A DNA stretch of 64,000 nt from a virus (Duplodnaviria > Caudoviricetes), in the IMG/VR virus record IMGVR_UViG_3300033074_001674, positions 101,894 to 165,893 of that record; one strand, 5' to 3'. Shown piece after piece: positions 29,208-57,908 of the stretch. A model generated the notes under the pieces. That model did no database searches. It was not told the origin of the DNA and was given only the letters and a program-made list of their open reading frames with translations. Within the stretch, counting starts at the first letter, position 1, and the number at the start of each line of letters is the position of its first letter. The position numbers and the translations under genes are program-made.

Positions 29208-29223
29208 CTCCATTATGGAATTA

Positions 29224-46494: not shown

Positions 46495-46841
46495 AATGGT
46501 ATCTCTTTCTTCTCTCCTAATTAATACCCCGGCTCAGGCGGCGCCTGCCTTAAAACCGGAAGGTGAAAAAGATGTGGTGAGGAAGGAGGGCAGGAAGAGT
46601 GGGTGTGGGTTGTTGGGCGGCGGTTTTGGTTGAACCGTGCCGAAGGCACGAGTTAGATGATGGCTACCCCCGGCCCCGATGCGATTCTCCTCACTGAAAT
46701 GAAATGAAAAAGACCCCCCGGGGAGAGGAGTGTTGCCATTCGGCGCCACTAGGTGCGCGGTTCTGTCGCTGAGCGCGAACGCTCACCCCACTGGCGCCAA
46801 TCGGCGACGCCACGGCGCGTCAAGTCCAGCAATCCCAATAG

Positions 46842-46857
46842 CGGCATGCAGCATGCT
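46842..46857 (+). promoter_or_regulatory. Sigma54-type -24/-12 promoter P0
   Basis: CGGCAT-GCAGC-ATGCT (GG-N10-GC). Confidence 0.6.
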
Positions 46858-46893
46858 GTAGAGTCAAGCGGCCAATGACGGCCGGAGGATACC

Positions 46894-47157
46894 ATGAAGA
46901 GTCTGACCCAAGCTGGTCTCGAGTACCTCGCCGCGACGCAAGCGTGCTCCCACGCTGCCCGCGTCTGGCGCAACAATCTGCCGCTGGAGCGGCTGACCGG
47001 CAGGCTCGCGGCGGACGACCCAGCGTGGCAGCGGTACGTGGTCGCCACCCGTCGCCAGCAGCGCGCTGCCCGGGCGTACGACGCGGCCTGCCGCGTCGCG
47101 TCGCTGGAAGCCGTGCTCGCGGCCCCGTGGCACGACAGGGTTATCCGAGCCTGCTAG
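46894..47157 (+). CDS. Hypothetical early protein (87 aa)
   Basis: GGAGGATACC-ATG. Confidence 0.7.
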   Translation: MKSLTQAGLEYLAATQACSHAARVWRNNLPLERLTGRLAADDPAWQRYVVATRRQQRAARAYDAACRVASLEAVLAAPWHDRVIRAC

Positions 47158-47170
47158 CAGGCTCTCCGCT

Positions 47171-47251
47171 CCCCCGGGGCGCTTGCCCCGGGGGAGCTAT
47201 CAAGCTAAGCTATACAGCAAGCCGATAAGTAAGTAACGGGAGGATACAATG
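47171..47251 (+). repeat. Hairpin plus sigma70-like promoter/leader, copy 1 (copy 2 at 50295-50370)
   Basis: CCCCGGG..CCCGGGG hairpin, TTGCCC-N17-TAAGCT, ATACAGCAAG.CGATAAG, GGAGGATAC. Confidence 0.75.
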
Positions 47252-47536
47252 GCTGGTCTGATTGTGGTCGTCTCTCTTACGCTCATTCTGTTGTCTGTTG
47301 CGCAGATTGTCCGGGCCGAACTGAGGCTCGCCCGGACGGAGCGTGTCCGGGCCGCGCGTGAGAGCGCGCGTGTCATGGGTGAGTACCACGGGCCACGTCC
47401 AAAGCGCGCCGTCTCGCCAACAAAGACCACCGTTAACCTTCCTGTTATGACGGAGCAAGAGATTCAGGAAGAGTATCAAACGCTGGTCACGCAATGCACA
47501 GTGATTGTCCACAACCCATTCGCCCGGGCGCGTTAA
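47249..47536 (+). CDS. Small membrane-anchored protein
   Basis: GGAGG RBS; N-terminal hydrophobic helix. Confidence 0.7.
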   Translation: MAGLIVVVSLTLILLSVAQIVRAELRLARTERVRAARESARVMGEYHGPRPKRAVSPTKTTVNLPVMTEQEIQEEYQTLVTQCTVIVHNPFARAR

Positions 47537-47559
47537 GCGCCCGGATTGGAGGATTAAAC

Positions 47560-47886
47560 ATGCGTTGCACATTCTGCGATTGGTCGAGCGCGGAGCTTGC
47601 AGTTTTCGAGGAGGATATAGCTATCCACGAGGACAGCGGGCTGCCAACGTGTAGCGATAGCGAGTGTCTCGAGAAAGCCGACGCTATCGTGGCCGGAGAA
47701 ATGGCCATGCGTCCGGCCCGACTCGTGCGCTACTGGCGCGCCCGCATGGGTGAGTGTCTCCGGATTGCTGGACGGGACTGGATTGGCGGCATGCGCCAAG
47801 CTCACCGGTTCGGACACTCGGAGACTGAGAACGAGAGCCAGGAGCGCGCGGATACCGTGCGTTTCCTGACGCGCGTGGCGCGCTAG
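47560..47886 (+). CDS. Small Zn-finger-like protein
   Basis: GGAGG RBS; CTFC...C....C. Confidence 0.7.
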   Translation: MRCTFCDWSSAELAVFEEDIAIHEDSGLPTCSDSECLEKADAIVAGEMAMRPARLVRYWRARMGECLRIAGRDWIGGMRQAHRFGHSETENESQERADTVRFLTRVAR

Positions 47887-47902
47887 GGATTGGGGTCCCG
47901 GG

Positions 47903-47966
47903 GTTCAGCCCCAGGGTCCCGGCCCGTCCGCGCTCCGCGCGGCGCCCCAGGGCGTTGGGGTAGAAC
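47903..47966. repeat. GTTC...GAAC structured repeat E1 (64 bp)
   Basis: Aligns with E2-E8; central hairpin CCGCGC-TCC-GCGCGG. Confidence 0.85.
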
Positions 47967-48047
47967 GAGTTACGAGGAGCGAGACAAAAGCGCTCGCCTC
48001 ATGGCGCCAGATGGACACACGCCCGCTGCGCGGGCTGGGGTTATGAC

Positions 48048-48063
48048 GGGCACGGCTCCTGCT
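48048..48063 (+). promoter_or_regulatory. Sigma54-type promoter P1
   Basis: GGGCAC-GGCTC-CTGCT. Confidence 0.7.
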
Positions 48064-48079
48064 ATGGGTAGAGTGGAGG

Positions 48080-48322
48080 ATGAACATGGAACGTTGCGAT
48101 GTGTGTCAGATGGAGTTCCCTTCGTCTCAACCGCAGCCCGCCGTGGCCGATGCGCCTCTCGGCGGGGGCATGTGGGGCTATCTCTGTGAGTCGCATCTGG
48201 GTCACGCGCGCGGCCCGATGACCAAGCTCGTGCAAGAGTTGGCCTGGCAAGAGTTTACGACCAAGCTCGACAGGGTGCTCATAACTCCCTGCGATTGCGG
48301 GACTTGCGAGGATTGCTCGTAA
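48080..48322 (+). CDS. Small Cys/His-rich protein
   Basis: GGAGG RBS; CDVC, DA..GG.WGYLC..H, CDCGTC. Confidence 0.75.
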   Translation: MNMERCDVCQMEFPSSQPQPAVADAPLGGGMWGYLCESHLGHARGPMTKLVQELAWQEFTTKLDRVLITPCDCGTCEDCS

Positions 48323-48340
48323 GTCATTGGCCGGTGGGCG

Positions 48341-48404
48341 GTTCAAGCTCACCGGCCCGGGCGCGCCGCCAAAGCGCGGCGAGGCCCGGCCGTTCCGGCT
48401 GAAC
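48341..48404. repeat. Structured repeat E2 (64 bp)
   Basis: GTTCAAG...CGCCGC-CAAAGC-GCGGCG...CTGAAC. Confidence 0.85.
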
Positions 48405-48525
48405 GGTCGCCCCGGCGCCCGCCAAACATTTCAGATGCGTCGCACAATCGCCTCGCTGGGTCCCATTTGACACGCAATCAGCCGGGGTAGCACGAGAATC
48501 ATTGGAGTTACGTCGCCAGACCCAT

Positions 48526-48541
48526 TGGCAGCCAGCTTGCT
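48526..48541 (+). promoter_or_regulatory. Sigma54-type promoter P2
   Basis: TGGCAG-CCAGC-TTGCT. Confidence 0.7.
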
Positions 48542-49129
48542 CTATGGTCTATCGTCCGCGCGGCCGAGTGAAGCGAGTAGAGACAAGCTCTCTCCGCTCA
48601 ACGCCCGCGCGCTACAGCCAGCGGTATCCGCAAACCGGCTGGTGGCGGCATTTGACAATTTGCCCCGGCGGGATTGGGAGCGCTCCCAATCTCTGGACAC
48701 TCCGCGCGAGCTGAGCATCTCCCCCGGTTTCTGACGCAAGTTAGCCTCACGTGAGCCGTTGCGACCTCCAAAGGGTCCCGACGTAACTTTGTGGGTCAGA
48801 ACAGAAGCCAAAGGTGTGCGCTCATGGTAACGCGCGCAGGAAATAAGCTCGCCAATATGCGCAGAGAATGCCGCGACGGCGGTAGCAGAGCGCAGCGGGC
48901 GATTCCTAGTCTTGCACGGCGTATACTTGTATGCCACCGACAAGCGGGACCCTGTTTCACGTCCTGGGCGTGCCGGCGCTGGCGCCATGTAGCAGCAAGC
49001 AACGCGTAATCGCGAGCGCGAAGCTTGTGGGCAGCAAGTAGTCTCGGGTCGCAAGGAACCCCGGTATCTTGAGCGGTTCGAGCCCGCAATGGCGCAACGT
49101 GTCCTCCCACTGGGGCCTGGGTTCGAGCG

Positions 49130-49193
49130 GTTCGAGCCCAGCGCCCCGGGCCAGCCGCGCTCCGCGCGGCGCCCGCGGGAGATGGGGTGGAAC
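49130..49193. repeat. Structured repeat E3 (64 bp)
   Basis: GTTCGAG...GCCGCGC-TCC-GCGCGGC...GGAAC. Confidence 0.85.
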
Positions 49194-49256
49194 GTTTCAT
49201 ATGCGCGTCACGAAACCTATCTGCGCCACATTCAACGGAGATTGCTCGAGATATGA

Positions 49257-49272
49257 TGGCACGGAGGGTGCA
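49257..49272 (+). promoter_or_regulatory. Sigma54-type promoter P3
   Basis: TGGCAC-GGAGG-GTGCA. Confidence 0.7.
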
Positions 49273-49305
49273 TTGGGTGGGGAGCGCGAAACGCGCGGAG
49301 GAAAC

Positions 49306-49692
49306 ATGAGCCGTCTTTACCTTCTCAACGCATTCTCCCTCAACATGCTCTCGTTCGACGAAGAACAAGAGCTCATCCCGCCCATGCGGGTGGTCGTCAA
49401 CCCGATGTCGCCGAAGGATGCGGCGCGGGTGGTCCAGGAAGCGTACAACAACATCCTGGCGCCCGGCTTCCCGCGGGGGCTCAACCTGCACGCCCACATC
49501 GGCCACGAGAGCACGGCCGCGCTACTGAGCAAGATGCTCAACATCCCTCTCCACGCCGACCGCGCCACCGTGACGATGCTACCGGGTGACATCGCCGTCG
49601 TCGCCCAGTACGTCGGCCCGCGTCTCCCCGAGGGTGCCACGTCGCTCCCCGAGGGTGCCACCATCCGCTTCTACCTCGTGGAAGTGGAGTAG
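49306..49692 (+). CDS. acrIII-1: DUF1874 (STIV B116/YddF) family protein; AcrIII-1-type cA4 ring nuclease
   Basis: YLLNAFSLNML, IGHESTA, DRATV.M.PGD, RLPEG family motifs; GGAGG RBS. Confidence 0.82.
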   Translation: MSRLYLLNAFSLNMLSFDEEQELIPPMRVVVNPMSPKDAARVVQEAYNNILAPGFPRGLNLHAHIGHESTAALLSKMLNIPLHADRATVTMLPGDIAVVAQYVGPRLPEGATSLPEGATIRFYLVEVE

Positions 49693-49712
49693 CCAGCCAG
49701 GGATTCCTGGGG

Positions 49713-49776
49713 GTTCAACCCCAGGGTCCCGGGCGCGCCGCCAAAGCGCGGCGAGGCCTGGAGGCTTGGCCTGAAC
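49713..49776. repeat. Structured repeat E4 (64 bp)
   Basis: 31-nt identity with the E2 core; left arm shared with E1. Confidence 0.85.
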
Positions 49777-49870
49777 GTCCTGGAGCGCGGGTGCAACATT
49801 TCTACTGCATGAGGCGTTTCATTGGGACCCATCCGCGCTGGGTAGCACGGAGAGCGCTAGAGTTACGTCG

Positions 49871-49886
49871 TGGCATCGGTATTGCT
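49871..49886 (+). promoter_or_regulatory. Sigma54-type promoter P4
   Basis: TGGCAT-CGGTA-TTGCT. Confidence 0.75.
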
Positions 49887-49907
49887 CTAGAGTGTCGCGG
49901 AGGAAAC

Positions 49908-50285
49908 ATGATGGAAAACACTGCAACGGGACCGTGCGAACGGTGCGAAAATAACTCGGCAGACTCTCGTGGATACGCCGGGCGCTTGTGCTGGGATTGC
50001 TCTGTCGAGTACGTGCTCGACAATCCTGGCCCGGAAGAGTGTGAAGAGCTTCTCGTGGCGATGCGCGACATCGCCGGAGATTGCTCTGTGGACGGGTGCA
50101 AGAACCCGGCTTTGCCCGAGGATTGCTCCGCGTACTGCGCGCTGCACAGAATCGAAGTATGCGGCGACGGAGATTTCCCGACGTGTGCGTGCGATGACGC
50201 AATCCGCGCCATCCGCTTCGTCCGAAACATCGTGCGGCCCGAACTTTTCTGGCCGTCCCTCGGTGGACCGCGGCGCGAAGAATAG
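49908..50285 (+). CDS. Cys-rich acidic protein
   Basis: GGAGG RBS; CERC, CWDC, CSVDGC, YCALH. Confidence 0.75.
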   Translation: MMENTATGPCERCENNSADSRGYAGRLCWDCSVEYVLDNPGPEECEELLVAMRDIAGDCSVDGCKNPALPEDCSAYCALHRIEVCGDGDFPTCACDDAIRAIRFVRNIVRPELFWPSLGGPRREE

Positions 50286-50294
50286 CCTTCCCCG

Positions 50295-50370
50295 CCCCCG
50301 GGCGCTTGCCCCGGGGGCGCTATCAAGTTAAGCTATACAGCAAGACGATAAGACAACGGAGGATACCATG
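50295..50370 (+). repeat. Hairpin plus sigma70-like promoter/leader, copy 2
   Basis: Near-copy of 47171-47251; TTGCCC(50306)-N17-TAAGCT(50329). Confidence 0.75.
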
Positions 50371-50586
50371 AACGCGCACGAGAGTCTCATTCTGTCCGTC
50401 CGTCGCCTGCGTGCGCTCCTCGCGAAGGAGCGCGGGGTCGACGAGGAGAGCCAGGGCGCTTACGACGCCCTGGAGCGCGCCCTGCGGGGCGAGCAGCCCC
50501 TGGGCTCCACGCTCGCCCACCTGGCAAGTCGGGCTTGCTTGGCAGGTGACCTGGCTCACGCCGCGCACCAGGAGGTGCGCTCGTGA
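50368..50586 (+). CDS. Hypothetical protein (72 aa)
   Basis: GGAGGATACC-ATG. Confidence 0.7.
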   Translation: MNAHESLILSVRRLRALLAKERGVDEESQGAYDALERALRGEQPLGSTLAHLASRACLAGDLAHAAHQEVRS

Positions 50587-50627
50587 GCCGAATGCGCCGC
50601 TATAGCTAGCAAGATGGGCCCTGGGCG

Positions 50628-50690
50628 GTTCAAGCTCACCGGCCCGGCCGCGCGCGGGACGCGCAAGAGGCCTGGACGTTGGGCTGGAAC
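50628..50690. repeat. Structured repeat E5 (63 bp)
   Basis: Left arm identical to E2, right arm identical to E6. Confidence 0.85.
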
Positions 50691-50747
50691 GAGACGGAGC
50701 GTGGCGCCAAATGGACACACCTGCCACGGATGCGCCACGGGTTAGGC

Positions 50748-50763
50748 TGGTATGGTGCGTGCT
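50748..50763 (+). promoter_or_regulatory. Sigma54-type promoter P5
   Basis: TGGTAT-GGTGC-GTGCT. Confidence 0.65.
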
Positions 50764-50788
50764 ATATAGAAGATTGGAGGGTCAAGCG

Positions 50789-51298
50789 ATGAACGAGAAC
50801 AAAGCAAAAGCATCAGAAGAGCGAGAGCTTGCGAGGCTTGGAGCCTCCCTTCGGGACCTGAGGCAAACCCTGGCGGCGGTCGACCTGCGCATCAATCAGC
50901 CGATGTCCACACTGCCAGAGGAGTACTTCCGCTCCGTCGGCGAGGTCTACTTCGAGCTAAAGCAGACCGAACGCAGGCTAATGGACCTGCGCGCAAAGGT
51001 CAACGGGCGCTGTCTCCGCGCATGGAAGGCCAAAGAGGAGAGGCTCAACTCCATCACGTCAATCAGGCAGCTAACCCACACCGAGCTAGGGAAGCTGCTG
51101 CGTACGCGCGAGCGAGGGTGGAGCGGCGACCGCCTCCGCATCGCCAACAAGCTCATGGGCTACCCGGCCAAGAGCTGGAGCACCGTTCTGGCCGAGGCCA
51201 GGACGTTGGCTCTGGCCGAGCTTAACCGACGACGGCAGGCCGCAGACCGCCGCCGCATCGGCTGCTGCGACGACCCTGGGCATTGCTGGCCTTACTAG
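50789..51298 (+). CDS. Hypothetical coiled-coil protein
   Basis: GGAGG RBS before ATG 50789. Confidence 0.7.
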   Translation: MNENKAKASEERELARLGASLRDLRQTLAAVDLRINQPMSTLPEEYFRSVGEVYFELKQTERRLMDLRAKVNGRCLRAWKAKEERLNSITSIRQLTHTELGKLLRTRERGWSGDRLRIANKLMGYPAKSWSTVLAEARTLALAELNRRRQAADRRRIGCCDDPGHCWPY

Positions 51299-51319
51299 GT
51301 CAGTAGCCGCGGGCCTTGG

Positions 51320-51382
51320 GTTCAACCCTAGGGCCCCGGCCCGCCCGCAAAGAACGGGCGCCCGCGGACGTTGGGCTGGAAC
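51320..51382. repeat. Structured repeat E6 (63 bp)
   Basis: GTTCAA...GCCCG-CAAAGAA-CGGGC...GGAAC. Confidence 0.85.
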
Positions 51383-51485
51383 GCGCCGGGATGCGTGTCA
51401 GATACGCCTCGAGGCGCAGGCGGGGAGTGTGTCCAAACGGCGCCGCCCGTACGTCTCACGGACGGAGATTGCTAGGCTTACGCTT

Positions 51486-51501
51486 CGGTCCGGCCCCTGC
51501 T
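51486..51501 (+). promoter_or_regulatory. Sigma54-type promoter P6
   Basis: CGGTCC-GGCCC-CTGCT-ATAGAG. Confidence 0.55.
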
Positions 51502-51870
51502 ATAGAGTAACCTGCCGACGGCGGGCGACAACAGCCGACGCGACCCGACGACACCGGGCGGTCTTTTACAACTCGAGCCTATCTGTAAGTACCGTTTCCG
51601 CGTCCTGTTTCCCGGTCTCGCCGTACCTAAACGGTTTGGGGAAACGCTCGGAGTAGACGGTCCGCGCGGGACTTACAGGGATGGTCTGATGGTGCGTATC
51701 CGCTACTGCGCGCTATCTTCCTATAGGCAAAAGGTTTGAGACGTGAGAGGCAATGAGTCTCCGGTAGCGGGGAGACAATCTGCCTGGGGAGAAAATCTGC
51801 CCATATGCCAGCTATATGGCGGTGGGCTAACAAGTTAGCGGCAATACCGCCGCAGAAAGGAGGTTCTGGC

Positions 51871-52164
51871 ATGAGGTTGGAGCATCTGGTGAAGATGGTG
51901 AGGGTCCTGGATAACTCGCACCGGCAGGCGCAGCGGGCCAGGGACAACGCGATGGAGCGCACCCAGCAGCTACCTGCGGCGCAGGCCTGGCTCCTCAGGA
52001 TGGCCGCCGAGGAGGAGCCCGACGACCGCCTGGAGCGGGCCGCGGCGGAGTACATCAAGCTGGTCAGGGGGGTCCGCTCGGCAAGGGAAGCCCAGGCGCG
52101 GAACGAGCGCAACGCGCTCGACGCCGCCGAGCGCCTGAAGTACGAACTGAGACTGGAGGACTAG
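51871..52164 (+). CDS. Hypothetical helical protein
   Basis: AAGGAGG RBS before ATG 51871. Confidence 0.75.
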   Translation: MRLEHLVKMVRVLDNSHRQAQRARDNAMERTQQLPAAQAWLLRMAAEEEPDDRLERAAAEYIKLVRGVRSAREAQARNERNALDAAERLKYELRLED

Positions 52165-52265
52165 CATCTCCCGGGGCGGAGCGCATTAGTGTCCCGCCCC
52201 GTACCAAACTTGTCCCATACGGGACGTATTTGACCGCATATCGACGGAGTTTGCTGGCGTTGTGC

Positions 52266-52281
52266 TGGCATGTCTCCTGCT
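52266..52281 (+). promoter_or_regulatory. Sigma54-type promoter P7
   Basis: TGGCAT-GTCTC-CTGCT. Confidence 0.7.
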
Positions 52282-52349
52282 ATACTGTGGAATGTCGGGC
52301 ACGGGCGCACCGACACCACATAACCTCTTGCGCCCATTGGAGTTTCACA

Positions 52350-52931
52350 ATGGCGATGTTCACGAGCGAGGTCCTGGCCAAGCTGCACGCCCTGGCCGCT
52401 CCCGCGGCGCGGGCGAAGGTGGAGGCTCTGGCCGACATCCACGAGGTGGCCGTCGAGACGGCCGTGAAGGAGTACGAGGGACTGCGGGCCAAGCACGAGG
52501 CTGCGGCCCTGGTGAAGGCCCTGAACGAGGCCAACGCGGTGGCGTTCCCCGCCAACAGCGACCAGGCCCGGGCGCTGCAGGGCGGCGCGGTGGGGCGCGT
52601 CGTCCTGGGTGAGGACGGCTCGGTGCGCATCACCTGGACCCTGATGGGGGCCCTGGGGTCGGGCACCGGCGCGAGCACGGGCCGTGGAAAGCGGGGCCGT
52701 GGTGGCCGGAAGTTCAAGTACTTCCACGACGGCCAGGCCCTCCCCCGCGGCTCCTCGGTGAAGGGGTTCCTCATGGAGCACTACCCCGACTCCGAGGCCG
52801 CCAGGACCATCCGGGAGTACAAGGCCAGCGAGGAGGCCGGGCTCTCCAGCGCCAAGATTGGCGCGTGGGAGGCCATCCTGAAGGACGAGGTGGTGAAGGC
52901 CCACTTCACTCGGGAGCAGGTGAACATCTAG
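52350..52931 (+). CDS. Hypothetical protein, paralogue of 56235-56864 (possible DNA-binding)
   Basis: GGAG RBS; extreme G/C third-position bias; shared F.YFH.G and K(I/L)GAW.AI motifs. Confidence 0.8.
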   Translation: MAMFTSEVLAKLHALAAPAARAKVEALADIHEVAVETAVKEYEGLRAKHEAAALVKALNEANAVAFPANSDQARALQGGAVGRVVLGEDGSVRITWTLMGALGSGTGASTGRGKRGRGGRKFKYFHDGQALPRGSSVKGFLMEHYPDSEAARTIREYKASEEAGLSSAKIGAWEAILKDEVVKAHFTREQVNI

Positions 52932-53019
52932 CCCGCTCCTCGGTCGGCGCCCGGGGGAGGATGGTCCTCCCCCGGGCCGGCTTCCTAAACTATCCAAGGG
53001 GGATGGTGAAGGATAGCAG

Positions 53020-53382
53020 ATGTCGTTCGTAGTTGAGGGATTCTTGCGTTCTGGTGGCAAAATAACACGACTAGTTGACACCCGCCTTGAGGCGGAACGC
53101 GAGTTCCACGACCTCAAGTCGCTTTGCGCAGATGTCCAGGTGATAGGCGCCGAGGGCATTATCGCGCAGTGGAGCGAGAAAGTGGACAGGCGCGAGGAGG
53201 CAGAGAAACTAATCAGGCTCCTGGCATCGGCCGGGACGGCCTGGGAATGGAATAGGGCCCGTGCGTTTGGCCAGAAGGTCGGCGCACCTGACCCAGGAGC
53301 GTGGTCAAAGCCCGCAGGTGTGCTGCGGGTGCTCCAGTGGGCCCTGGAACGTGGTGTGTGGAAAGGAATGGCAAGCGCGTGA
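53020..53382 (+). CDS. Hypothetical protein
   Basis: 120 aa; AAGGA RBS. Confidence 0.65.
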   Translation: MSFVVEGFLRSGGKITRLVDTRLEAEREFHDLKSLCADVQVIGAEGIIAQWSEKVDRREEAEKLIRLLASAGTAWEWNRARAFGQKVGAPDPGAWSKPAGVLRVLQWALERGVWKGMASA

Positions 53383-53804
53383 GCGCCAGGGCTTTTCAGA
53401 TGGACATGTCCACCGGGAACTCCCGGATGGACCGGATGAACTCCCGACAGGTCGGGAGGCTCCACAAGTGGAACGGTAAGGAGGCGCGGGTCAAGTCCAG
53501 CCAGACGACCCGCAAGCGGGTCGGAGTCAAGCTCGACCGGCGGCGGCTCAAGGAGCTCCTGGCCGAGGAGCCTCTGGTGGGGGCGATGAGCCTGGAAGAG
53601 GAGAACTCGCTCAGGAGCGACCTCCACATGCCCCGCCTCATGACCGAGGAGGAGCGGCTGGAGGAGGCGCGCTACGCCTTCCTGGCCTGGCAGAAGCAGT
53701 ACTGCGAGGACGAAGAGGAACGCACGTATCTGCAGTTCCTGGAGCGTCTGGACAGGACTCTCCTGAAGTACGACGAGCGGGAACTGGCCAACATCATCGA
53801 CTAG
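53379..53804 (+). CDS. Hypothetical protein
   Basis: GTGA overlap with upstream stop; GC3-biased codons. Confidence 0.65.
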   Translation: MSARAFQMDMSTGNSRMDRMNSRQVGRLHKWNGKEARVKSSQTTRKRVGVKLDRRRLKELLAEEPLVGAMSLEEENSLRSDLHMPRLMTEEERLEEARYAFLAWQKQYCEDEEERTYLQFLERLDRTLLKYDERELANIID

Positions 53805-53828
53805 GCCGGTTGTCGTTCAGGGCGCCTG

Positions 53829-53891
53829 GTTCAAGCCAGGCGCCCCCGCCCGGCCGCAAAGCCGGCCGAGGCCTGGAAGATGGGCATGAAC
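53829..53891. repeat. Structured repeat E7 (63 bp)
   Basis: GTTCAAG...CGGCCG-CAAAGC-CGGCCG...TGAAC. Confidence 0.85.
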
Positions 53892-53974
53892 CCTCCTTGA
53901 AACGTATCCCATATCTCTGGGGCCCACTGTGTCCAATTGGCGACACGCACCATTGTAGTGTAAGAAGTTACGCG

Positions 53975-53990
53975 CGGCACGTCGCTTGCT
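53975..53990 (+). promoter_or_regulatory. Sigma54-type promoter P8
   Basis: CGGCAC-GTCGC-TTGCT. Confidence 0.75.
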
Positions 53991-54014
53991 CCCGGTATTA
54001 TGGTGGAGGATTCT

Positions 54015-54176
54015 GTGGTAAATGTCCTGAGCATTAACGGCGTTCTTGTCCAGGTCTCGGATAAGCTGGATGAGAAGTATCCAGAGGACAGGGCCATCAT
54101 CAATCACATCAAGGAAGCCCTTGAGCACGGCGCCAAGGAAGGACGCTATGCGGGGGTCTACTGGGGATTGCTGTAA
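54015..54176 (+). CDS. 53-aa hypothetical protein (not in ORF track)
   Basis: GGAGG then GTG; MVNVLSINGVLVQVSDKLDEKYPEDR...YWGLL. Confidence 0.7.
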   Translation: MVNVLSINGVLVQVSDKLDEKYPEDRAIINHIKEALEHGAKEGRYAGVYWGLL

Positions 54177-54186
54177 TGGAGGACCA

Positions 54187-54441
54187 GTGGCGCGTATCAT
54201 AATCGATGTGCCTGACAACGTAGACGGGGACGACCTTCAAATCGTCATCTGTGGAGCGTTGGCAGAGTACCAGTACAGCCGGTTTCCATCTCCTGAAATC
54301 TATGTCAGGGAGAGGTACAGGAATCTGAAGTCCACTAGCCCAGAGTTCTTGCGCAAGGTGGCGCAGGTCGAGCGCTATCTTAACATCGCGCAAACGGTCC
54401 GCGATGCAATGGCAAAGGACAATTTTCTGGTGGAGGAGTAG
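54187..54441 (+). CDS. Hypothetical protein
   Basis: GGAGG then GTG 54187. Confidence 0.7.
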   Translation: MARIIIDVPDNVDGDDLQIVICGALAEYQYSRFPSPEIYVRERYRNLKSTSPEFLRKVAQVERYLNIAQTVRDAMAKDNFLVEE

Positions 54442-54445
54442 GGCG

Positions 54446-54661
54446 ATGACGCAGCGCGTCACACGTGTGGTGGCCACATTCCCATCTAGCAAGGTGGAAC
54501 GTCTGGTGGAAGGACATCCATCAGCAGTAGGAACAAAGGGAAGATGGGCCAGAGAAGCCCGACTCCTGGCTAAGGAAGGGGCCCTGGATGTGATTGTCAC
54601 ATCCCCGGCCGGCAAGGTCATCTACTGGTGGCATTCGCGCCACGGAAGGATTGACAAATGA
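54446..54661 (+). CDS. Hypothetical protein
   Basis: GGAG RBS; operon packing. Confidence 0.65.
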   Translation: MTQRVTRVVATFPSSKVERLVEGHPSAVGTKGRWAREARLLAKEGALDVIVTSPAGKVIYWWHSRHGRIDK

Positions 54662-54906
54662 GTTGTTACTATCACGGCTCTGTGTGTGATGGTTCCAGAT
54701 GTCCTCCAGATGAGCCTACATACAGAAAGCCTCAGTACGGTTCATTCGTAATCGATGTGCAGGACCACATGTTCTGCACTGGCATAACGTTCTTCACGGC
54801 CACAGGGCGGCAAATCTTCTACTGTGAGGTTGGCTGCGACTCGGATGTGTCGCAGGTGGTGGAGGCGTTCTTCAACGGCATGGAAATCGGATGGTATGCC
54901 AAATGA
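54658..54906 (+). CDS. Hypothetical protein
   Basis: ATGA coupling on both sides. Confidence 0.65.
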   Translation: MSCYYHGSVCDGSRCPPDEPTYRKPQYGSFVIDVQDHMFCTGITFFTATGRQIFYCEVGCDSDVSQVVEAFFNGMEIGWYAK

Positions 54907-55178
54907 GCGTTGATAGGACTGCCTTGGCGGCGGACCTCATGTTCAACTCGCACGGCGAGGCATATCGCGATGTCCAGGAGGCCAAATCAATCCTCCTGAC
55001 TCGCTGGGTCCCAAAGGGGCCGTTCAACCTCAGTCAGGTATATGCCATGGAGCCTATCCCTGACATTTCTCTCTATCTGGCCGTCGTAGAACTGCTAGAG
55101 GAGAAGGTCATCAAGGGAATCCATCCCTACGACCATAGGGTCCGTCGCCACGACCAGATGGCATATGAGGCAGTCTGA
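54903..55178 (+). CDS. Hypothetical protein
   Basis: ATGA and TGATG coupling. Confidence 0.65.
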   Translation: MSVDRTALAADLMFNSHGEAYRDVQEAKSILLTRWVPKGPFNLSQVYAMEPIPDISLYLAVVELLEEKVIKGIHPYDHRVRRHDQMAYEAV

Positions 55179-55558
55179 TGGACAGGGAAATTCGGTCAGC
55201 GACGACGTATGAGCAGTACTGGCGCGCCATGCTGCGCGCCGGCCAAATTCAAGGACTTTGTGCGCCCGTCACTAACAAGGTAAAGGCGCTAAAGCGTAGC
55301 ATGATGACCCTAATTCAGGGCGCCGCGCGCGAGAATCCAGAAATGCTCAGTGCAACTCATAAGGATAGCATTAGGAATCTAAACATCTACTGGTGGCGCA
55401 ATCAGCCAGAAGATTGGACCTACGGAGACTTCGAGGTCCTGAATTGGCAGATGAGTGAGGAATTCGATACTGGATATTACTACATCGCCAACTGTGCAAT
55501 GTGGTGCGTTCCTGAATCAGCATGGGAAGCTTGGGGGATTAGGGTAGACGATAGATAG
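55178..55558 (+). CDS. Hypothetical Trp-rich protein
   Basis: TGATG coupling; 126 aa. Confidence 0.65.
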   Translation: MDREIRSATTYEQYWRAMLRAGQIQGLCAPVTNKVKALKRSMMTLIQGAARENPEMLSATHKDSIRNLNIYWWRNQPEDWTYGDFEVLNWQMSEEFDTGYYYIANCAMWCVPESAWEAWGIRVDDR

Positions 55559-55565
55559 GTGTACA

Positions 55566-55802
55566 ATGGACTCTATAATTCAGAGAGCCAAAAGAGATGG
55601 AAATTTCTCTAGGATGGCCATAGAAATAAGAAGGGCAGGAGAAATGACCATCTATGTAATATGTTGGAAGGGAACCGAGCGTTGCTCAAGTTACGAACTA
55701 GTAGAAAACACATGTTTCGACTCCTATGAGTCAGCAGCTAAATATCAATCAGAACATTACTCAATAGGACAAACACATATCCGACCATTGAAAATGAATT
55801 AG
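55566..55802 (+). CDS. Hypothetical protein
   Basis: AGGTG RBS; ends 8 bp before E8. Confidence 0.55.
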   Translation: MDSIIQRAKRDGNFSRMAIEIRRAGEMTIYVICWKGTERCSSYELVENTCFDSYESAAKYQSEHYSIGQTHIRPLKMN

Positions 55803-55809
55803 GAGAGGT

Positions 55810-55873
55810 GTTCAAGCTCAGGGCCCCGGCCCGCACCGCAAAGCCGGTGCGCCCAAGGCAGATGGGCCTGAAC
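55810..55873. repeat. Structured repeat E8 (64 bp)
   Basis: GTTCAAG...GCACCG-CAAAGC-CGGTGC...CTGAAC. Confidence 0.85.
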
Positions 55874-56010
55874 TGTCCTGGACGGAGCTCCTATATTCAG
55901 GAGCGGTTACGATTGTATGACCTATGCAACTTTTTTATTGCAGGTGCAGTGGCTTGGTGGCAGTAGAATGGTGTGCCCTATGGATTGGGTTCAATTGTGG
56001 TGCGTTGCGT

Positions 56011-56135
56011 TTCGTCTCATGAGACGTATCCCCACCGTGGTCATTGGAGTAGGAGCGATGCTGGGGTCCCGGTTCGTTTCACCCGGCGTAACCCTCGGCC
56101 CCACAAAGCTTTAGACCATTGGCACCGGGACTGCT
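56011..56135 (+). promoter_or_regulatory. Conserved upstream element plus sigma54-type promoter P9 (homologous to 60311-60436)
   Basis: CGTCTCATGAGACG palindrome, GGAGTAGGAGCGA, GTAACC, then TGGCAC-CGGGA-CTGCT at 56120. Confidence 0.7.
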
Positions 56136-56234
56136 CTATGGTGAGGTGCGCGTGACCGTCCCGAAGGTCGGGATTAGTAACGCGGTCCTTTCACCCCGTG
56201 TTTTACCTGCCCTTTTGGGCACAGGAGTTTTATC

Positions 56235-56864
56235 ATGTTCCCTACCGATGTGTTGGCGTCCTTCCACAAGCGTGAGATGGAGGAGGCCCTGGAGAAGGTC
56301 ACGCAGTACTGCAACCTGATGGACAAGGACCCCGACGAGGGCAGGGCGGAGTACAAGAAGCTCCGCGCCAACTTCGAGGCCGCGGAGGCCAAGAAGCGCC
56401 TGGCCGAGCGCCTGCGGGTGCTGTCCAAGGCCATCAACGGGGCCGTCATCCTGCTCGCGCAGGAGAACGGCGGCGACGTGGAGGCGGCCCTCATCGAGTA
56501 CATCAAGAGCGAGGGCGTCCTGACCCTCGAGGTCGTCCAGGACGAGGACGAGGGCACGCAGTTCGTCATCCGGTCCAAGGCGCACTTGGCCAAGGACGCG
56601 GTGGCCACCTCGAGCCAGGCCAACCGCTCGACCCGCGAGGGCCGCCGGTCGTCCTTCCGGTACTTCCACCGGGGGGAGGCCATCAACGGGGCCCTGGCCA
56701 AGTTCCTCCGCGACAACTACCCGACCTCCAGGGCAGTCGAGCGCCTGGACGAGGTGGATGCCAAGTACAACGCGGGCGAGAGCAAGAGCAAGCTCGGCGC
56801 CTGGCAGGCCATCATCGCCGACCGGGACCTGGCCGACCTGTTCGACCGTGAGGAGGTGGCCTAG
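56235..56864 (+). CDS. Hypothetical protein, paralogue of 52350-52931
   Basis: AGGAG RBS; GC3-biased; aligns end to end with its paralogue. Confidence 0.8.
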   Translation: MFPTDVLASFHKREMEEALEKVTQYCNLMDKDPDEGRAEYKKLRANFEAAEAKKRLAERLRVLSKAINGAVILLAQENGGDVEAALIEYIKSEGVLTLEVVQDEDEGTQFVIRSKAHLAKDAVATSSQANRSTREGRRSSFRYFHRGEAINGALAKFLRDNYPTSRAVERLDEVDAKYNAGESKSKLGAWQAIIADRDLADLFDREEVA

Positions 56865-56886
56865 CCACAACTAGGGCGTCCGCCCG

Positions 56887-56952
56887 TAGGACCAGGCAGT
56901 ACAGGACTGCCCCTTTCCAGAGGTGACGAGGTTCAACTCCTCGCTGGTCCTA
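56887..56952 (+). ncRNA. Miniature tRNA-like RNA 1
   Basis: TAGGACCAG/CTGGTCCTA acceptor, CAGT-ACAGG-ACTG D-arm, shrunken anticodon arm, CGAGG-TTCAACT-CCTCG T-arm. Confidence 0.65.
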
Positions 56953-56997
56953 TTCCGTTAGGCCCACTTTGGACCTGACCTAGATAGTGAGGAATCC

Positions 56998-57225
56998 ATG
57001 CCCCGAGTCGTCTGTCCAATCTCCAAGGCCACCTTCCTCGAGGCCGCGACCTCGATGGAGTCGTCCTTCGACGGAAGTCCTGACCACATCCAGATGAATC
57101 CCATCCAGTACGGCACTGGGTCCTTGGGATGGCAGGGCCAGGGGACCGTCGAGGTCATCGTGGCCGGAATCCCGGTCCAGTGCATCGCCCACCTGAAGCT
57201 CGTGGTCAAGGGGTCCAAGGGCTAG
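56998..57225 (+). CDS. Small conserved protein (CP.S...F...A / GTGSLGW / V.GSK family)
   Basis: GAGG RBS; motif pattern recalled from small Planctomycetota proteins. Confidence 0.7.
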   Translation: MPRVVCPISKATFLEAATSMESSFDGSPDHIQMNPIQYGTGSLGWQGQGTVEVIVAGIPVQCIAHLKLVVKGSKG

Positions 57226-57264
57226 GAGAAGAGGGTCAGGGGATGCCCTATAAATCCCCAACAT

Positions 57265-57337
57265 GGGCCTGTAGCTCAATTGGTAGAGCATCCGCCTTTT
57301 AAGCGGGGGGTTCCGGGTTCGAGTCCCGGCAGGCCTA
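57265..57337 (+). tRNA. tRNA-Lys(TTT)
   Basis: GGGCCTG/CAGGCCT acceptor, AGCTCAATTGGTAGAGC D-arm, CTTTTAA loop, GGTTCGAGTCC T-arm. Confidence 0.93.
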
Positions 57338-57356
57338 TCCCATCTAACCAGGTCTA

Positions 57357-57653
57357 ATGACCAAGGAGAAGTCCGTGGCCATCGTACAGTGCATCAACTG
57401 CAAGAACTGGACCAATCAGGTCAAGAAGGTGTCCAGAGGCGGCGCCTGCGAGGAGACGCCGCACTGCAAGGCCTCCTGGCGCGAGCACCTCCGTCTCCTC
57501 AAGGAGGAGGCCAGGGCCTTCGCCGAGGTCAAGCGGCGAAGGAAGCAGGAGAAGAACGCGCGCAACAAGGCCAATAGGGCCGCGAGGGCCAAGGCCAACC
57601 AGGACGTGGCCTCTGGCGCCAACTTGAAGAACACCTACAAGATGGGCAAGTAG
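57357..57653 (+). CDS. Basic Zn-finger-like protein
   Basis: CINC...C.....HC plus Lys/Arg-rich tail; GC3-biased. Confidence 0.7.
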   Translation: MTKEKSVAIVQCINCKNWTNQVKKVSRGGACEETPHCKASWREHLRLLKEEARAFAEVKRRRKQEKNARNKANRAARAKANQDVASGANLKNTYKMGK

Positions 57654-57676
57654 CGCCCATACCGCCTTCGACAATT

Positions 57677-57719
57677 AGGCCCCGCTCAGGCGATGACCTG
57701 GGCGGGGTCTTTTTGTTTT
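57677..57719 (+). terminator. Intrinsic terminator ending the GC-rich block
   Basis: AGGCCCCGCTCAGG-CGATGA-CCTGGGCGGGGTCT-TTTTGTTTT. Confidence 0.88.
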
Positions 57720-57740
57720 AACGCATTCAGGGCGCAATCC

Positions 57741-57908
57741 GTTCAAGCCCACAGGCCCGGGCCGCTCCTGGATTGATTGGCGTTAAAGGACTTATGGCGC
57801 GCAACTTTGGTAAACCCCCCGGGTTTTTGGGTATGCCCTGATTCGTTCAATCTCAACGCCCCTTAACGAACTATAAGGACTTATGGCGGGCCTGGAAAGA
57901 TGTTGAAT
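57741..57908. repeat. Two degenerate copies of the E repeat
   Basis: GTTCAAGCCCACAGGCCCGGGCC at 57741; GTTCAA(57845)...GGCCTGGAAAGATGTTGAAT(57908) keeps the 64-bp span. Confidence 0.6.

What the first reader, a model, noticed from the sequence alone, without database searches (positions are those of the whole stretch)
46790..57720. Candidate new system: modular early-gene cassette array (structured repeat + enhancer-like site + sigma54 promoter + small cargo gene)
Seen: the GC-rich block repeats one grammar about 8 times. After a stop codon comes a 63-64 bp GTTC...GAAC element, then an 18-bp imperfect palindrome, often a GAGTTAC-like word, then a GG-N10-GC promoter, a GGAGG RBS and one to a few small, mutually unrelated ORFs. 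One cargo is an AcrIII-1 homologue. Established: T4-like phages shuffle early ORFs through repeated promoter/stem-loop (PeSL) elements, but those use sigma70 promoters. Inference: this is an analogous, independently built, sigma54-wired and shuffleable anti-defence/host-takeover array. No recombinase lies inside the array; the phage RecA at 2888-3901 could act on the repeats.
Basis: partly seen in the sequence, partly recalled or inferred. Interest (0 to 1): 0.9.

Follow-up and report, generated by a model that had tools for sequence, protein, structure and literature searches.

The report
Sigma54-type shuffling gene cassettes in phage
A large uncultured phage keeps its small accessory genes (one is a known anti-CRISPR enzyme) in a GC-rich 11-kb island built from repeated units, each with a folded boundary element and a sigma-54-type promoter, and related phages differ by gains, losses and swaps of genes that break inside those elements.

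Summary
A 166-kb, 40% GC viral contig carries one 11-kb island of 62-68% GC (window 46.8-57.7 kb). The island holds 8 full copies and one half copy of a structured element (E), 10 sigma54-type -24/-12 boxes, and about 25 small plus-strand ORFs. One ORF is an AcrIII-1 ring-nuclease homologue. E and the strict promoter pattern occur nowhere else in the genome.

- **E is longer than reported.** It is about 85 nt. An upstream arm pairs with the 5' arm (loop GGTTCAA), with compensatory changes between copies. A second covarying hairpin and a conserved tail ending TGAAC follow.
Related contigs keep the same GC-rich island but differ by cassette indels with E-E junctions. One unrelated gene is swapped between conserved promoter and E flanks. 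E copies are themselves mosaics that switch at a central CCCGG.

Best reading: a PeSL-like set of mobile regulatory cassettes, as in T4-type phages, but wired with sigma54-type promoters. This is a new variant of a known kind.

Not shown: who reads the boxes (the held 166 kb shows no sigma54 or activator, and the host is unknown), early timing, and what E does as RNA. Anti-defence function rests on one gene.

This scan has noted sigma54-type cassette boundaries in at least 21 other genomes. I did not check those notes.

The parts
46732..46808 (.). Two class I sites (TGGCGCC-N-GGACAC-like; 46732-46748 on the - strand, 46792-46808 on the + strand) upstream of the first promoter
46843..46857 (+). 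Sigma54-type box P1 (GGCATGCAGCATGCT). It heads gene 1 (46894-47157, 87 aa), gene 2 (47249-47536, 95 aa) and gene 3 (47560-47886, 108 aa).
47172..47229 (+). D7 repeat, copy 1: a GC hairpin plus a conserved leader and RBS. It is a second kind of boundary element and a breakpoint in relatives.
47883..47966 (+). E1, upstream arm included
48002..48063 (+). Class I site (48002-48018) and sigma54-type box P2 (48049-48063), heading gene 4 (48080-48322)
48321..48404 (+). E2
48527..49110 (+). Box P3 (48527-48541), followed by about 570 nt with no called gene in relatives. A conserved core lies near 48640-48850. Candidate non-coding RNA.
49110..49193 (+). E3
49258..49692 (+). Box P4 (49258-49272) and the AcrIII-1 / DUF1874 ring-nuclease homologue (49306-49692, 128 aa)
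49693..49776 (+). E4
49872..50586 (+). Box P5 (49872-49886), a Cys-rich 125-aa ORF (49908-50285), D7 copy 2 (50295-50352) and a 72-aa ORF (50368-50586)
50608..50690 (+). E5. Its 5' arm is identical to that of E2 and its own upstream arm no longer fits, which points to recent conversion.
50702..51298 (+). Class I site (50702-50718), box P6 (50749-50763) and a 169-aa ORF (50789-51298). In L002 an unrelated AAA_33 kinase gene sits in the place of this ORF.
51300..51382 (+). E6
51429..52164 (+). Class I site (51429-51445, - orientation), box P7 (51487-51501), a long leader with a roughly 290-nt insert absent from L002 (51527-51819), and a 97-aa ORF (51871-52164)
52267..53804 (+). Box P8 (52267-52281), a 193-aa ORF (52350-52931, paralogue of 56235-56864), a 120-aa ORF (53020-53382) and a 134-aa ORF (53400-53804)
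53809..53891 (+). E7
53929..55802 (+). Class I site (53929-53945, - orientation), box P9 (53976-53990) and eight small ORFs (54015-55802). The last ORF (55566-55802, 38% GC) is absent from relatives.
55810..55873 (+). E8. It has no matching upstream arm, and the low-GC gene is inserted just upstream of it.
55995..56135 (+). Class III upstream block (palindrome CGTCTCATGAGACG, then GGAGTAGGAGCGA) and box P10 (56121-56135)
56235..57653 (+). A 209-aa ORF (56235-56864), a tRNA-like RNA (56886-56952), a 75-aa ORF (56998-57225), tRNA-Lys(UUU) (57264-57340) and a 98-aa ORF (57357-57653)
57677..57710 (+). The only canonical intrinsic terminator (hairpin plus T-run) on the + strand of the island
57741..57764 (+). 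Left-half-only E at the island's right edge, conserved in L002 at 11587-11611
60295..60436 (+). Second class III block with sigma54-type box P11 (60422-60436). It lies outside the GC-rich island and heads low-GC genes.

Best explanation
The island is a hyperplastic accessory-gene region, probably early, made of about 10 transcription units.

**Layout of a unit.**
- Each unit begins with short conserved protein-binding-type sites of at least three classes.
- Next come a -24/-12 box of the sigma54 type (TGGCAC-N5-TTGCT), a GGAGG ribosome-binding site and one to eight small ORFs.
- Most units end in E, an element of about 85 nt.

**Layout of E.** It is two-part.
- The left half is hairpin H1. Its stem differs from copy to copy but stays complementary, and its loop is GGTTCAA. 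I read it as the 3' end of the upstream cassette.
- After a central CCCGG comes the right half. It holds hairpin H2 and a conserved tail ending TGAAC, which can pair back to the GTTCA. The right half travels with the downstream promoter region.

**How it works (inferred).**
- As RNA, E most likely forms or protects the 3' ends of the unit's transcript. That could be termination or RNase III-type processing, as between phage T7 early genes.
- As repeated DNA, E provides patches of homology, and so do the promoter/RBS block and the D7 hairpin. General recombination acts on these patches to delete, insert, duplicate and swap cassettes. The phage's UvsX-like enzyme or a host enzyme could do this. 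This is how PeSLs work in T4-type phages.
- The boxes are probably read by the host's sigma54 holoenzyme with a host activator.
- The island's GC-rich, host-like codon usage fits genes that must be expressed before the phage's own tRNAs and sigma factor are made.

**Shown:** the anatomy, the covariation, the mosaicism and the indels in relatives.
**Inferred:** sigma54 reading, early timing, the RNA function of E and the recombination enzyme.
For: **Anatomy and statistics.**
- E copies and boxes are confined to the island, co-oriented with the genes and far above chance.
- No sigma70-type promoter sits at any unit head. There is only one canonical terminator, at the island's end.

**Structure of E.**
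- Hairpins made from an upstream arm and its own 5' arm average -23.7 kcal/mol. Non-cognate combinations average -16.9 (0 of 20,000 permutations reached it).
- Even in one fixed register, the covariation score is 0.242 against 0.149 in shuffles, and 0 of 500 shuffles reach it.
- H2 stems differ between copies but stay paired.

**Shuffling.**
- Relatives L002-L009 keep a GC-rich island between low-GC flanks, with E copies and boxes at matching places.
- Against L002 the window has two extra cassette blocks bounded by E elements.
- The 169-aa ORF and L002's AAA_33 kinase gene are unrelated. They lie between homologous E, site, box, RBS and ATGAAC on the left and homologous E on the right.
- Contigs from runs filed under four different studies show an E2-E5 junction (48334 to 50622, with 26 shared letters) and an E4-E6 junction (49693 to 51318). 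They also show replacements that start at the RBS or ATG and end at the D7 hairpin.
- Left and right halves of E reassort at CCCGG. E1 and E4 share a left half, E2 and E4 a right half, E2 and E5 a left half, E1 and E3 a right half. One contig continues after 51339 with a different right half.
- A left-half-only E closes the array.

**Sigma54 reading.**
- GG and GC are invariant at a spacing of 10. The boxes are conserved between diverged orthologous and paralogous regions while the spacers vary.
- Leader lengths are sensible.
- No phage RNA polymerase was found. The PF00940 search also matched nothing in any of its control genomes, so it shows little.

**Composition.** Island GC3 is 0.59-0.97, apart from one inserted gene at 0.35. 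Bulk genes have GC3 of 0.24-0.38. The eight tRNAs with a readable anticodon mostly read A/U-rich codons: Leu-UAA, Ala-UGC, Arg-UCU, Glu-UUC, Asn-GUU, Lys-UUU, Leu-CAA, plus Met-CAU.

**Precedent.** PeSLs are described in PMC2839356 and PMC4122927. A sigma54-like promoter is reported in Pseudomonas phage YuA (PMC10914365).
Against: - The 166 kb held (CheckV 74% complete) shows no sigma54 gene and no enhancer-binding protein. The only PF00158 match is a RuvB-like ATPase.
- The host is unknown, so it cannot be said to have rpoN.
- The class I site lies only about 39 bp upstream of the -24 GG. That is closer than typical enhancer sites.
- The region after the -12 box is more conserved (TGCTMTA) than sigma54 alone requires.
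- E has no T-run, so it is not a classical intrinsic terminator.
- Two alternative folds are about equally stable, and no data tell RNA from DNA function.
- E8 and its L002 orthologue lack a strong H1.
- Several indels are not E-bounded: the 51527-51819 insert, the L005 junction inside a gene, and gene-internal replacements.
- Only one of about 25 ORFs has a known function.
- No transcript data exist.
Confidence: 0.65

Rival explanations
1. The -24/-12-like boxes are not read by host sigma54. They would instead be a phage-lineage promoter or operator motif read by a phage factor, or by host polymerase modified by a phage protein, and they only resemble the sigma54 consensus. The cassette-shuffling reading would stay the same.
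For: No sigma54 or activator gene was found in the phage, and the host is unknown. Conservation extends downstream of the -12 GC (TGCTMTA[GT][AG]GT), beyond what the consensus needs. The phage encodes its own sigma70-family factor. Earlier follow-ups of similar boxes in other phages left the reader of the site undecided (unchecked notes).
Against: The two conserved blocks are 5 nt apart, with invariant GG and GC 10 nt apart. This is the sigma54 hallmark, and it does not fit sigma70-family spacing of 16-18 nt. Several boxes read GGCACG-N4-TTGCT, a near-perfect match to the consensus. The class III units have a palindrome about 100 bp upstream, at a typical enhancer distance. No phage RNA polymerase was detected.
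Confidence: 0.22
2. E is a dedicated site-specific recombination site, a phage analogue of an integron attC. An unidentified recombinase would exchange promoter-bearing cassettes at the central CCCGG or in the GGTTCAA loop.
For: E is a fixed-length, folded, imperfect palindrome with invariant ends, placed after cargo genes. At least three independent switches between left and right halves fall at the same CCCGG. A half-element closes the array.
Against: No integrase or other recombinase family was found among the island ORFs. E reads GTTC...GAAC, the inverse of the attC pattern RYYYAAC...GTTRRRY. Each cassette has its own promoter. The E2-E5 junction shares 26 identical letters, as expected from homologous recombination. 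Many breakpoints lie in promoter/RBS blocks or in D7 instead.
Confidence: 0.07
3. The island is foreign DNA taken from a GC-rich donor (the host or another phage), and E is a selfish REP- or MITE-like palindromic repeat that spread within it. The link with promoters and cassette borders would be incidental.
For: The compositional contrast is extreme. E is confined to the island. E copies exchange parts. Cargo GC is heterogeneous, from 38% to 72%.
Against: Every E is co-oriented with the genes and lies between a stop codon and the next promoter. Orthologous E copies sit at the same places in relatives that are only about 70-80% identical, so the island and its contrast are old and maintained. 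There is no transposase. The E pattern has no match in 185,579 prokaryote species genomes or in IMG/VR, and only 3 chance matches in JGI metagenomes. The paralogue family has no relatives in the prokaryote genomes.
Confidence: 0.08
4. The GC-rich block is an assembly chimera that joins two organisms.
For: The record is a metagenome contig with a sharp GC change.
Against: Low-GC phage sequence flanks the island on both sides. Independent assemblies from several studies span the same junctions: L002 and L004 and X4 and X6 records 8, 14 and 17.
Confidence: 0.01

Closest known systems
PeSLs (promoter-early stem-loop mobile regulatory cassettes) of T4-type phages (PMC2839356, PMC4122927)
   Same: A repeated intergenic composite of a stem-loop and a promoter flanks small ORFs of unknown function in a hyperplastic region. 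Insertions, deletions and replacements between related phages break inside the repeated motifs. Recombination between the motifs is the proposed mechanism.
   Different: The promoter is of the sigma54 type (-24/-12), not sigma70 early. The folded element is much larger (about 85 nt, two covarying hairpins plus a conserved tail) and is clearly two-part. There are several classes of upstream sites. The array forms a GC-rich island in a 40% GC genome. The phage is not demonstrably T4-type: its terminase is only 27% identical to any deposited phage. Excised circles have not been shown.
Bacterial sigma54 (RpoN) enhancer-dependent promoters
   Same: TGGCAC-N5-TTGCW with invariant GG and GC. Conserved palindromic sites lie upstream. 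No -35/-10 elements are present.
   Different: They occur in a phage, in about 11 copies, with no cognate activator in sight. The class I site is unusually close (centre about 39 bp upstream of the GG). Function is untested.
Sigma54-like promoter of Pseudomonas phage YuA (as cited in PMC10914365)
   Same: A phage promoter with sigma54 features and reported dependence on the host factor.
   Different: YuA has single promoters, not a tiled array joined to cassette boundary elements.
RNase III processing hairpins between phage T7 early genes (established knowledge, not tested here)
   Same: Irregular hairpins of about 60 nt lie after each early gene or unit. After cleavage they would leave a protective 3' stem.
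   Different: No sequence relation. Cleavage of E is untested. E has an alternative fold that uses an upstream arm.
Integron attC cassette sites
   Same: A folded imperfect palindrome follows each cargo gene, and cassettes are gained and lost at it.
   Different: The end motifs have the opposite polarity. There is no IntI. Cassettes carry their own promoters. Junctions look homology-driven.

Membership tests
PeSL-type mobile regulatory cassettes | Repeated intergenic composite of a stem-loop followed by a promoter, flanking small ORFs in a variable region | tested here: met
   8 E elements are each followed within 59-248 bp by a promoter box. The ORFs have no known family.
PeSL-type mobile regulatory cassettes | Indels and replacements between related phages have their breakpoints in the motifs | tested here: met
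   E-bounded extra cassettes against L002. A cargo swap between conserved flanks. E2-E5 and E4-E6 junctions in other samples. Mosaic E copies.
PeSL-type mobile regulatory cassettes | The promoter is a sigma70-type early promoter of a T4-type phage | tested here: not met
   No sigma70-type site sits at the unit heads. The boxes are of the -24/-12 type. The terminase is only distantly related to deposited phages.
PeSL-type mobile regulatory cassettes | Excised circular forms from motif-to-motif recombination | not testable with these tools
   This needs outward PCR or raw long reads. Only contigs could be laid.
Sigma54-dependent promoter | GG at -24 and GC at -12, 10 nt apart, within TGGCAC-N5-TTGCW | tested here: met
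   6 strict and 10-11 loose matches, all co-oriented with the genes. Enrichment is 6 against 0.08 expected.
Sigma54-dependent promoter | Upstream activator sites for an enhancer-binding ATPase | tested here: inconclusive
   Conserved palindromic sites exist. Class I is close to the box, and no binding protein is known.
Sigma54-dependent promoter | rpoN and an enhancer-binding protein present in the phage or host | tested here: inconclusive
   Neither is found in the 166 kb held. The contig is 74% complete and the host is unknown.
Sigma54-dependent promoter | Transcription start 11-13 nt downstream of the GC, and dependence on rpoN | not testable with these tools
   No RNA run holding the stretch could be used.
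AcrIII-1 / DUF1874 ring nuclease | Match to PF08960 above the curated cut-off | tested here: met
   34.9 bits against a cut-off of 26, E 1.7e-8. Also phrog_5063 at 3e-12.
AcrIII-1 / DUF1874 ring nuclease | Conserved active-site His and Arg/Glu motifs | tested here: met
   IGHEST and RLPEG align with STIV B116 and AFV3-109. That these residues are catalytic rests on my own knowledge of SIRV1 gp29.
Integron cassette (attC) | R'' RYYYAAC ... R' GTTRRRY ends and an adjacent IntI | tested here: not met
   E reads GTTC...GAAC on both strands. No recombinase family was found among the island ORFs.
REP/MITE-type selfish repeats | Dispersed copies in either orientation, often with a cognate transposase | tested here: not met
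   All copies share one orientation and lie only at cassette borders of one island. They are absent from 185,579 prokaryote species genomes.

The most novel reading that the evidence does not exclude
A virulent AT-rich phage of a GC-rich host keeps its first-expressed anti-defence and takeover genes in a host-mimicking GC-rich island. The whole island would run on the host's sigma54 holoenzyme, a route that needs an activating ATPase and so could be switched on by infection stress. The GC-rich composition would match host codons before the phage tRNAs exist, and might also keep the region clear of silencers that bind AT-rich DNA. E would be a purpose-built two-part boundary: the 3'-end hairpin of one cassette fused to the upstream part of the next. 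Its central CCCGG would be a preferred exchange point, which would make the array a promoter-carrying phage counterpart of an integron.
Probability: 0.15. Interest if true: 0.85.

Novelty: new variant of a known kind. Interest (0 to 1): 0.62.

Why it matters
Phage accessory regions are where new anti-defence genes turn up. How they are regulated and how they exchange genes is known mainly from T4-type PeSLs.

This array shows the same logic built from different parts. It uses a sigma54-type promoter, which phages are rarely reported to use, and a large two-hairpin boundary element whose halves demonstrably reassort. It sits in a compositional island that has stayed GC-rich inside an AT-rich genome across diverged relatives.

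If the boxes really are read by sigma54, a phage would depend on an enhancer-gated host route for a whole gene class. That raises the question of which host activator it exploits.

In practice, the E elements and boxes mark cassette borders. The roughly 25 unknown ORFs next to AcrIII-1 are therefore a defined candidate list for anti-defence screening.

The same theme has been noted by this scan in at least 21 other genomes (unchecked notes). It may be widespread among uncultured large phages and still undescribed in the papers I could search.

Tried and rejected
- **Known RNA families.** Rfam at gathering and at E-value thresholds gives no family for E, for the candidate ncRNA or for the leader insert.
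- **E as a tRNA T-arm.** The loop and stem registers do not fit a 7-nt T-loop closed by G53-C61 (by eye).
- **Searches for E elsewhere.** IMG/VR gives 0 and the GTDB species genomes give 0. JGI metagenomes give 3 hits that share nothing with the island and are chance palindromes.
- **Searches for relatives.** For the island, megablast and blastn against deposited phages find nothing. The 209-aa family has no relatives in IMG/VR or in genome contigs.
- **Host inference.** The terminase is only 27% identical to Bacillus and Microcystis phages, which is uninformative. ESM Atlas hits for the 209-aa protein score below 0.9, so they are leads only.
- **RNA evidence.** No RNA holder is listed. Runs labelled metatranscriptomic are probably DNA, and their contigs break at E as expected for repeats in an assembly graph.
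- **PF00158 match.** It turned out to be a RuvB-like ATPase.
- **D7 as a promoter.** No convincing sigma54 or sigma70 fit by eye, so the genes after D7 are probably co-transcribed with the gene upstream.
- **Fixed-register counting of H1 and H2.** Only 60.6% of cells pair, because the stem register and loop length differ between copies. The cognate against non-cognate test suits the data better.
- **Pseudoknot between the H1 loop GTTCA and the tail TGAAC.** Both are invariant, so there is no covariation to test. One relative has GCAC without a compensating change.
- **NifA-type TGT-N10-ACA reading of the class I site.** Only one copy fits fully, and the motif carries too little information.
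- **blastn-short for diverged class I-III copies.** It found only D7. The class III copies were confirmed by alignment instead.

Full report
**Setting**

The window is the last 64 kb of a single 165,893-bp IMG/VR viral contig. The record is linear and CheckV puts it at 74% complete. The genome is about 40% GC throughout, except for one block of 62-68% GC at window 46.8-57.7 kb.

Left of the block lie minus-strand genes: ribonucleotide reductase, terminase, portal, a UvsX-like recombinase and a DnaB-like helicase. The block's genes are all on the plus strand. Elsewhere the genome encodes a sigma70-family sigma factor and a RuvB-like ATPase. In the 166 kb held I found no RNA polymerase, no sigma54 DNA-binding domain and no enhancer-binding protein. 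The PF00940 search also matched nothing in any of its control genomes, so its blank shows little.

**The observation**

*E elements.* Eight full copies of a 63-64-nt GTTC...GAAC element lie at 47903, 48341, 49130, 49713, 50628, 51320, 53829 and 55810. All are on the plus strand. A profile built from them finds no other copy in the genome. It does find a left-half-only copy at 57741-57764, just after the island's only canonical terminator at 57677-57710.

*Promoter boxes.* The strict sigma54-like pattern TGGYAB-N5-BTGCW occurs six times in the whole genome on both strands. All six are in the island and on the plus strand. Dinucleotide shuffles of the island itself give 0.08. Looser matches bring the total to ten intergenic boxes in the island, plus one at 60422. 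No sigma70-type promoter sits at any unit head.

*Upstream sites.* The '18-bp palindrome' (TGGCGCCANNTGGACAC) has six intergenic copies, in either orientation, against about one hit expected. In three units its centre lies 39 bp upstream of the -24 GG. It serves only five of the ten units.

- Other units share a second conserved block.
- A third block holds the palindrome CGTCTCATGAGACG about 100 bp upstream of the box, followed by GGAGTAGGAGCGA. It is conserved in four copies across two genomes.
- The GAGTTAC word lies just upstream of, or near, several boxes, but it is only modestly enriched.

*Cargo.* The AcrIII-1 call is right. ORF 49306-49692 matches PF08960 above its cut-off. It aligns with STIV B116 and AFV3-109 through the IGHEST and RLPEG motifs. 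No other island ORF has a Pfam or PHROG family.

**What E is**

- **Hairpin H1.** About 20 nt upstream of the GTTC, directly after the stop codon, lies an arm complementary to the 5' arm of E. It forms a 7-12-bp hairpin whose loop is (G)GTTCAA. The 5' arm differs from copy to copy and the upstream arm follows it.
  - Over 15 distinct copies from this phage and its relatives, cognate hairpins average -23.7 kcal/mol.
  - Non-cognate combinations average -16.9 kcal/mol, and none of 20,000 permutations reached the cognate mean.
- **Rest of the element.** After an invariant CCCGG comes a second hairpin, H2. It has at least six different stem sequences, usually with loop CAAAGC. A conserved tail follows, ending in TGAAC.
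- **Alternative fold.** E alone can also fold as one long irregular hairpin closed by GUUCA/UGAAC. The two folds are about equally stable.
- **Fixed-register count.** Covariation is 0.242 against 0.149 in shuffles, and 0 of 500 shuffles reach it. Only 60.6% of cells pair, because the registers differ between copies.

E has no T-run, so it is not a classical intrinsic terminator. It matches no Rfam family. Its co-orientation with the genes and the compensatory changes argue for a single-stranded, most likely RNA, role. I favour 3'-end formation or protection, either termination or RNase III-type processing as between T7 early genes. That step is an inference.

**Relatives and shuffling**

A two-paralogue family in the island (52350-52931 and 56235-56864) led to four related proteins and nine contigs from Logan and ENA assemblies. 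These contigs have the same layout. A GC-rich island sits between flanks of about 45% GC, with E copies, sigma54-type boxes and even the terminal half-E. Against L002, nucleotide identity in shared parts is about 68-86%. The island and its compositional contrast are therefore old and maintained, and not an assembly artefact.

Gene order is colinear but mosaic.

- The window has an extra block between E1 and E2 (gene 4).
- It has another extra block between E3 and E5: AcrIII-1, a 125-aa ORF, a D7 repeat and a 72-aa ORF.
- The 169-aa ORF at 50789-51298 and L002's AAA_33 kinase gene are unrelated. They share homologous flanks. On the left the homology runs through E, the class I site, the box, the RBS and the first two codons. 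On the right it resumes at the loop of the next E.

Laying contigs from four runs, filed under four different studies and labelled wastewater, aquatic and marine metagenomes, gave further junctions.

- An E2-E5 junction (48334 to 50622, with 26 letters shared by both sides) appears in two runs.
- An E4-E6 junction (49693 to 51318) appears in a third.
- The low-GC 78-aa gene before E8 is absent.
- Gene 1 is replaced between its RBS and the D7 hairpin, and gene 2 is replaced from just after its ATG.

The E copies are also mosaics. E1 and E4 share a left half, E2 and E4 a right half, E2 and E5 a left half, and E1 and E3 a right half. All switches fall at the central CCCGG. One contig continues after 51339 with a different right half. 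E5's upstream arm no longer fits its 5' arm, which is identical to that of E2. That looks like a recent conversion.

So E is two-part. The left half belongs to the upstream cassette and the right half to the downstream promoter region. That also explains the half-copy at the array's end.

Not every event is E-bounded. Exceptions are a roughly 290-nt insert in a leader (51527-51819), a junction inside a gene in L005, and gene-internal replacements.

**Mechanism**

The pattern is the one described for PeSLs in T4-type phages. There, conserved composite terminator-promoter motifs supply the homology on which recombination shuffles small early ORFs (PMC2839356, PMC4122927). The 26-nt identity at the E2-E5 junction fits homologous recombination. 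No recombinase family was found among the island ORFs. The UvsX-like protein is a plausible agent, but this is only an inference.

An integron-like site-specific system is unlikely. The ends of E have the opposite polarity to attC, there is no IntI, and each cassette has its own promoter.

A selfish REP- or MITE-like repeat is also unlikely. All copies sit at one kind of place in one orientation. The E pattern has no match in 185,579 prokaryote species genomes or in IMG/VR, and only three chance matches in JGI metagenomes.

**The sigma54 question**

The boxes have invariant GG and GC ten nt apart. Several read GGCACG-N4-TTGCT. They are conserved between diverged copies while the spacers vary. 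They lie 18-101 nt upstream of start codons, apart from two long leaders. That geometry does not fit sigma70-family promoters.

Against this, there is no activator and no sigma54 gene in the held sequence. The host is unknown, because the terminase is only 27% identical to any deposited phage. There is no transcript evidence either. One precedent is the sigma54-like promoter reported for Pseudomonas phage YuA (PMC10914365). I put the sigma54 reading at about 0.6.

**Composition**

Island genes have GC3 of 0.59-0.97, apart from the inserted 78-aa gene at 0.35. Bulk genes have GC3 of 0.24-0.38. ARAGORN finds nine tRNA genes, one with an unreadable anticodon. The eight readable ones mostly read A/U-rich codons: Leu-UAA, Ala-UGC, Arg-UCU, Glu-UUC, Asn-GUU, Lys-UUU and Leu-CAA, plus Met-CAU.

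This fits an AT-rich phage in a GC-rich host, whose first-expressed genes use host-like codons. That is an inference, and so is 'early'.

**Comparison and novelty**

This is a new variant of a known kind. It has PeSL-like logic with a different promoter class, a much more elaborate two-part folded boundary, several classes of upstream sites and a maintained compositional island. My paper searches found nothing describing such an array.

This scan's own notebook lists sigma54-type boxes at phage cassette borders in at least 21 other genomes. Those are unchecked AI notes, and I did not test them. They suggest the theme is widespread, which lowers the surprise of this single case but raises the interest of the class.

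**Verdict**

- Observation: confirmed.
The shuffling test passes. Sigma54 dependence, early timing and the anti-defence role are still inferences.
- Confidence in the overall reading: 0.65.
- Interest: 0.62.

Noticed in passing
window 56886-56952 (+): A tRNA-shaped RNA without a D arm. It has a 9-bp acceptor stem, a 6-bp stem with a 5-nt loop where the anticodon arm should be, a small extra hairpin and a perfect T arm (CGAGG-UUCAACU-CCUCG). It matches Rfam mascRNA at 29 bits, below threshold, and its fold z-score is -2.5. It is conserved in L002, also as an inverted match. It resembles the tRNA-scaffold RNAs noted elsewhere in this genome.
   Followed up: partly
window 48527-49110 (+): A sigma54-type box is followed by about 570 nt with no called gene in the relatives. 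The core near 48640-48850 is about 85% identical to L002 and L009. One perfect hairpin (GATTGGGAGCGCTCCCAATC) is shortened by one base on each side in the relatives. It is a candidate non-coding RNA with no Rfam match, and its fold z-score is only -1.0.
   Followed up: partly
window 51527-51819 (+): A roughly 290-nt insert lies in the leader between box P7 and the 97-aa ORF. It is absent from L002 and present in L005. It has no Rfam match and no convincing ORF.
   Followed up: no
window 60295-60445 (+): A second copy of the class III upstream block, with a sigma54-type box, lies outside the GC-rich island. It heads low-GC genes, including an HNH endonuclease (60513-61034) next to tRNA-Met. L002 has the same second copy at 12895-13050.
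   Followed up: partly
whole genome; window genes as listed: Codon GC3 is 0.59-0.97 in island genes against 0.24-0.38 in bulk genes. The phage's readable tRNAs mostly read A/U-rich codons. This suggests a GC-rich host and host-like codon usage for the island only.
   Followed up: partly
window 55566-55802 (+): A 78-aa gene of 38% GC is inserted between the 126-aa ORF and E8. It is absent from L002 and from contigs of two other samples, and it displaces E8's upstream arm.
   Followed up: yes
window 47172-47229 and 50295-50352 (+): D7 is a second repeat (93% identical copies, also present in L002). It consists of a GC hairpin, then GCTATCAAGYTAAGCTATACAGCAAG, then an RBS. It acts as a breakpoint in relatives but holds no clear promoter.
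   Followed up: partly
genome ends (G000:C1 1-200 and 165694-165893): Both contig ends lie in a repetitive GCTGCTNGGGCTGC... (Ala/Trp/Arg-rich) coding repeat. The record is probably cut inside one gene of a circularly permuted or incomplete genome.
   Followed up: no
L001:2187-2834 (genome about 29005-29652): A phage sigma70-family sigma factor (Sigma70_r4, phrog_351) lies next to a RuvB-like ATPase. It is probably for middle or late genes.
   Followed up: partly
L005 (whole locus): This relative carries a window-type module (193-aa paralogue and following genes) in tandem with an L002-type module (189-aa paralogue and following genes). The junction truncates a small gene, so this module duplication did not go through E.
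   Followed up: partly
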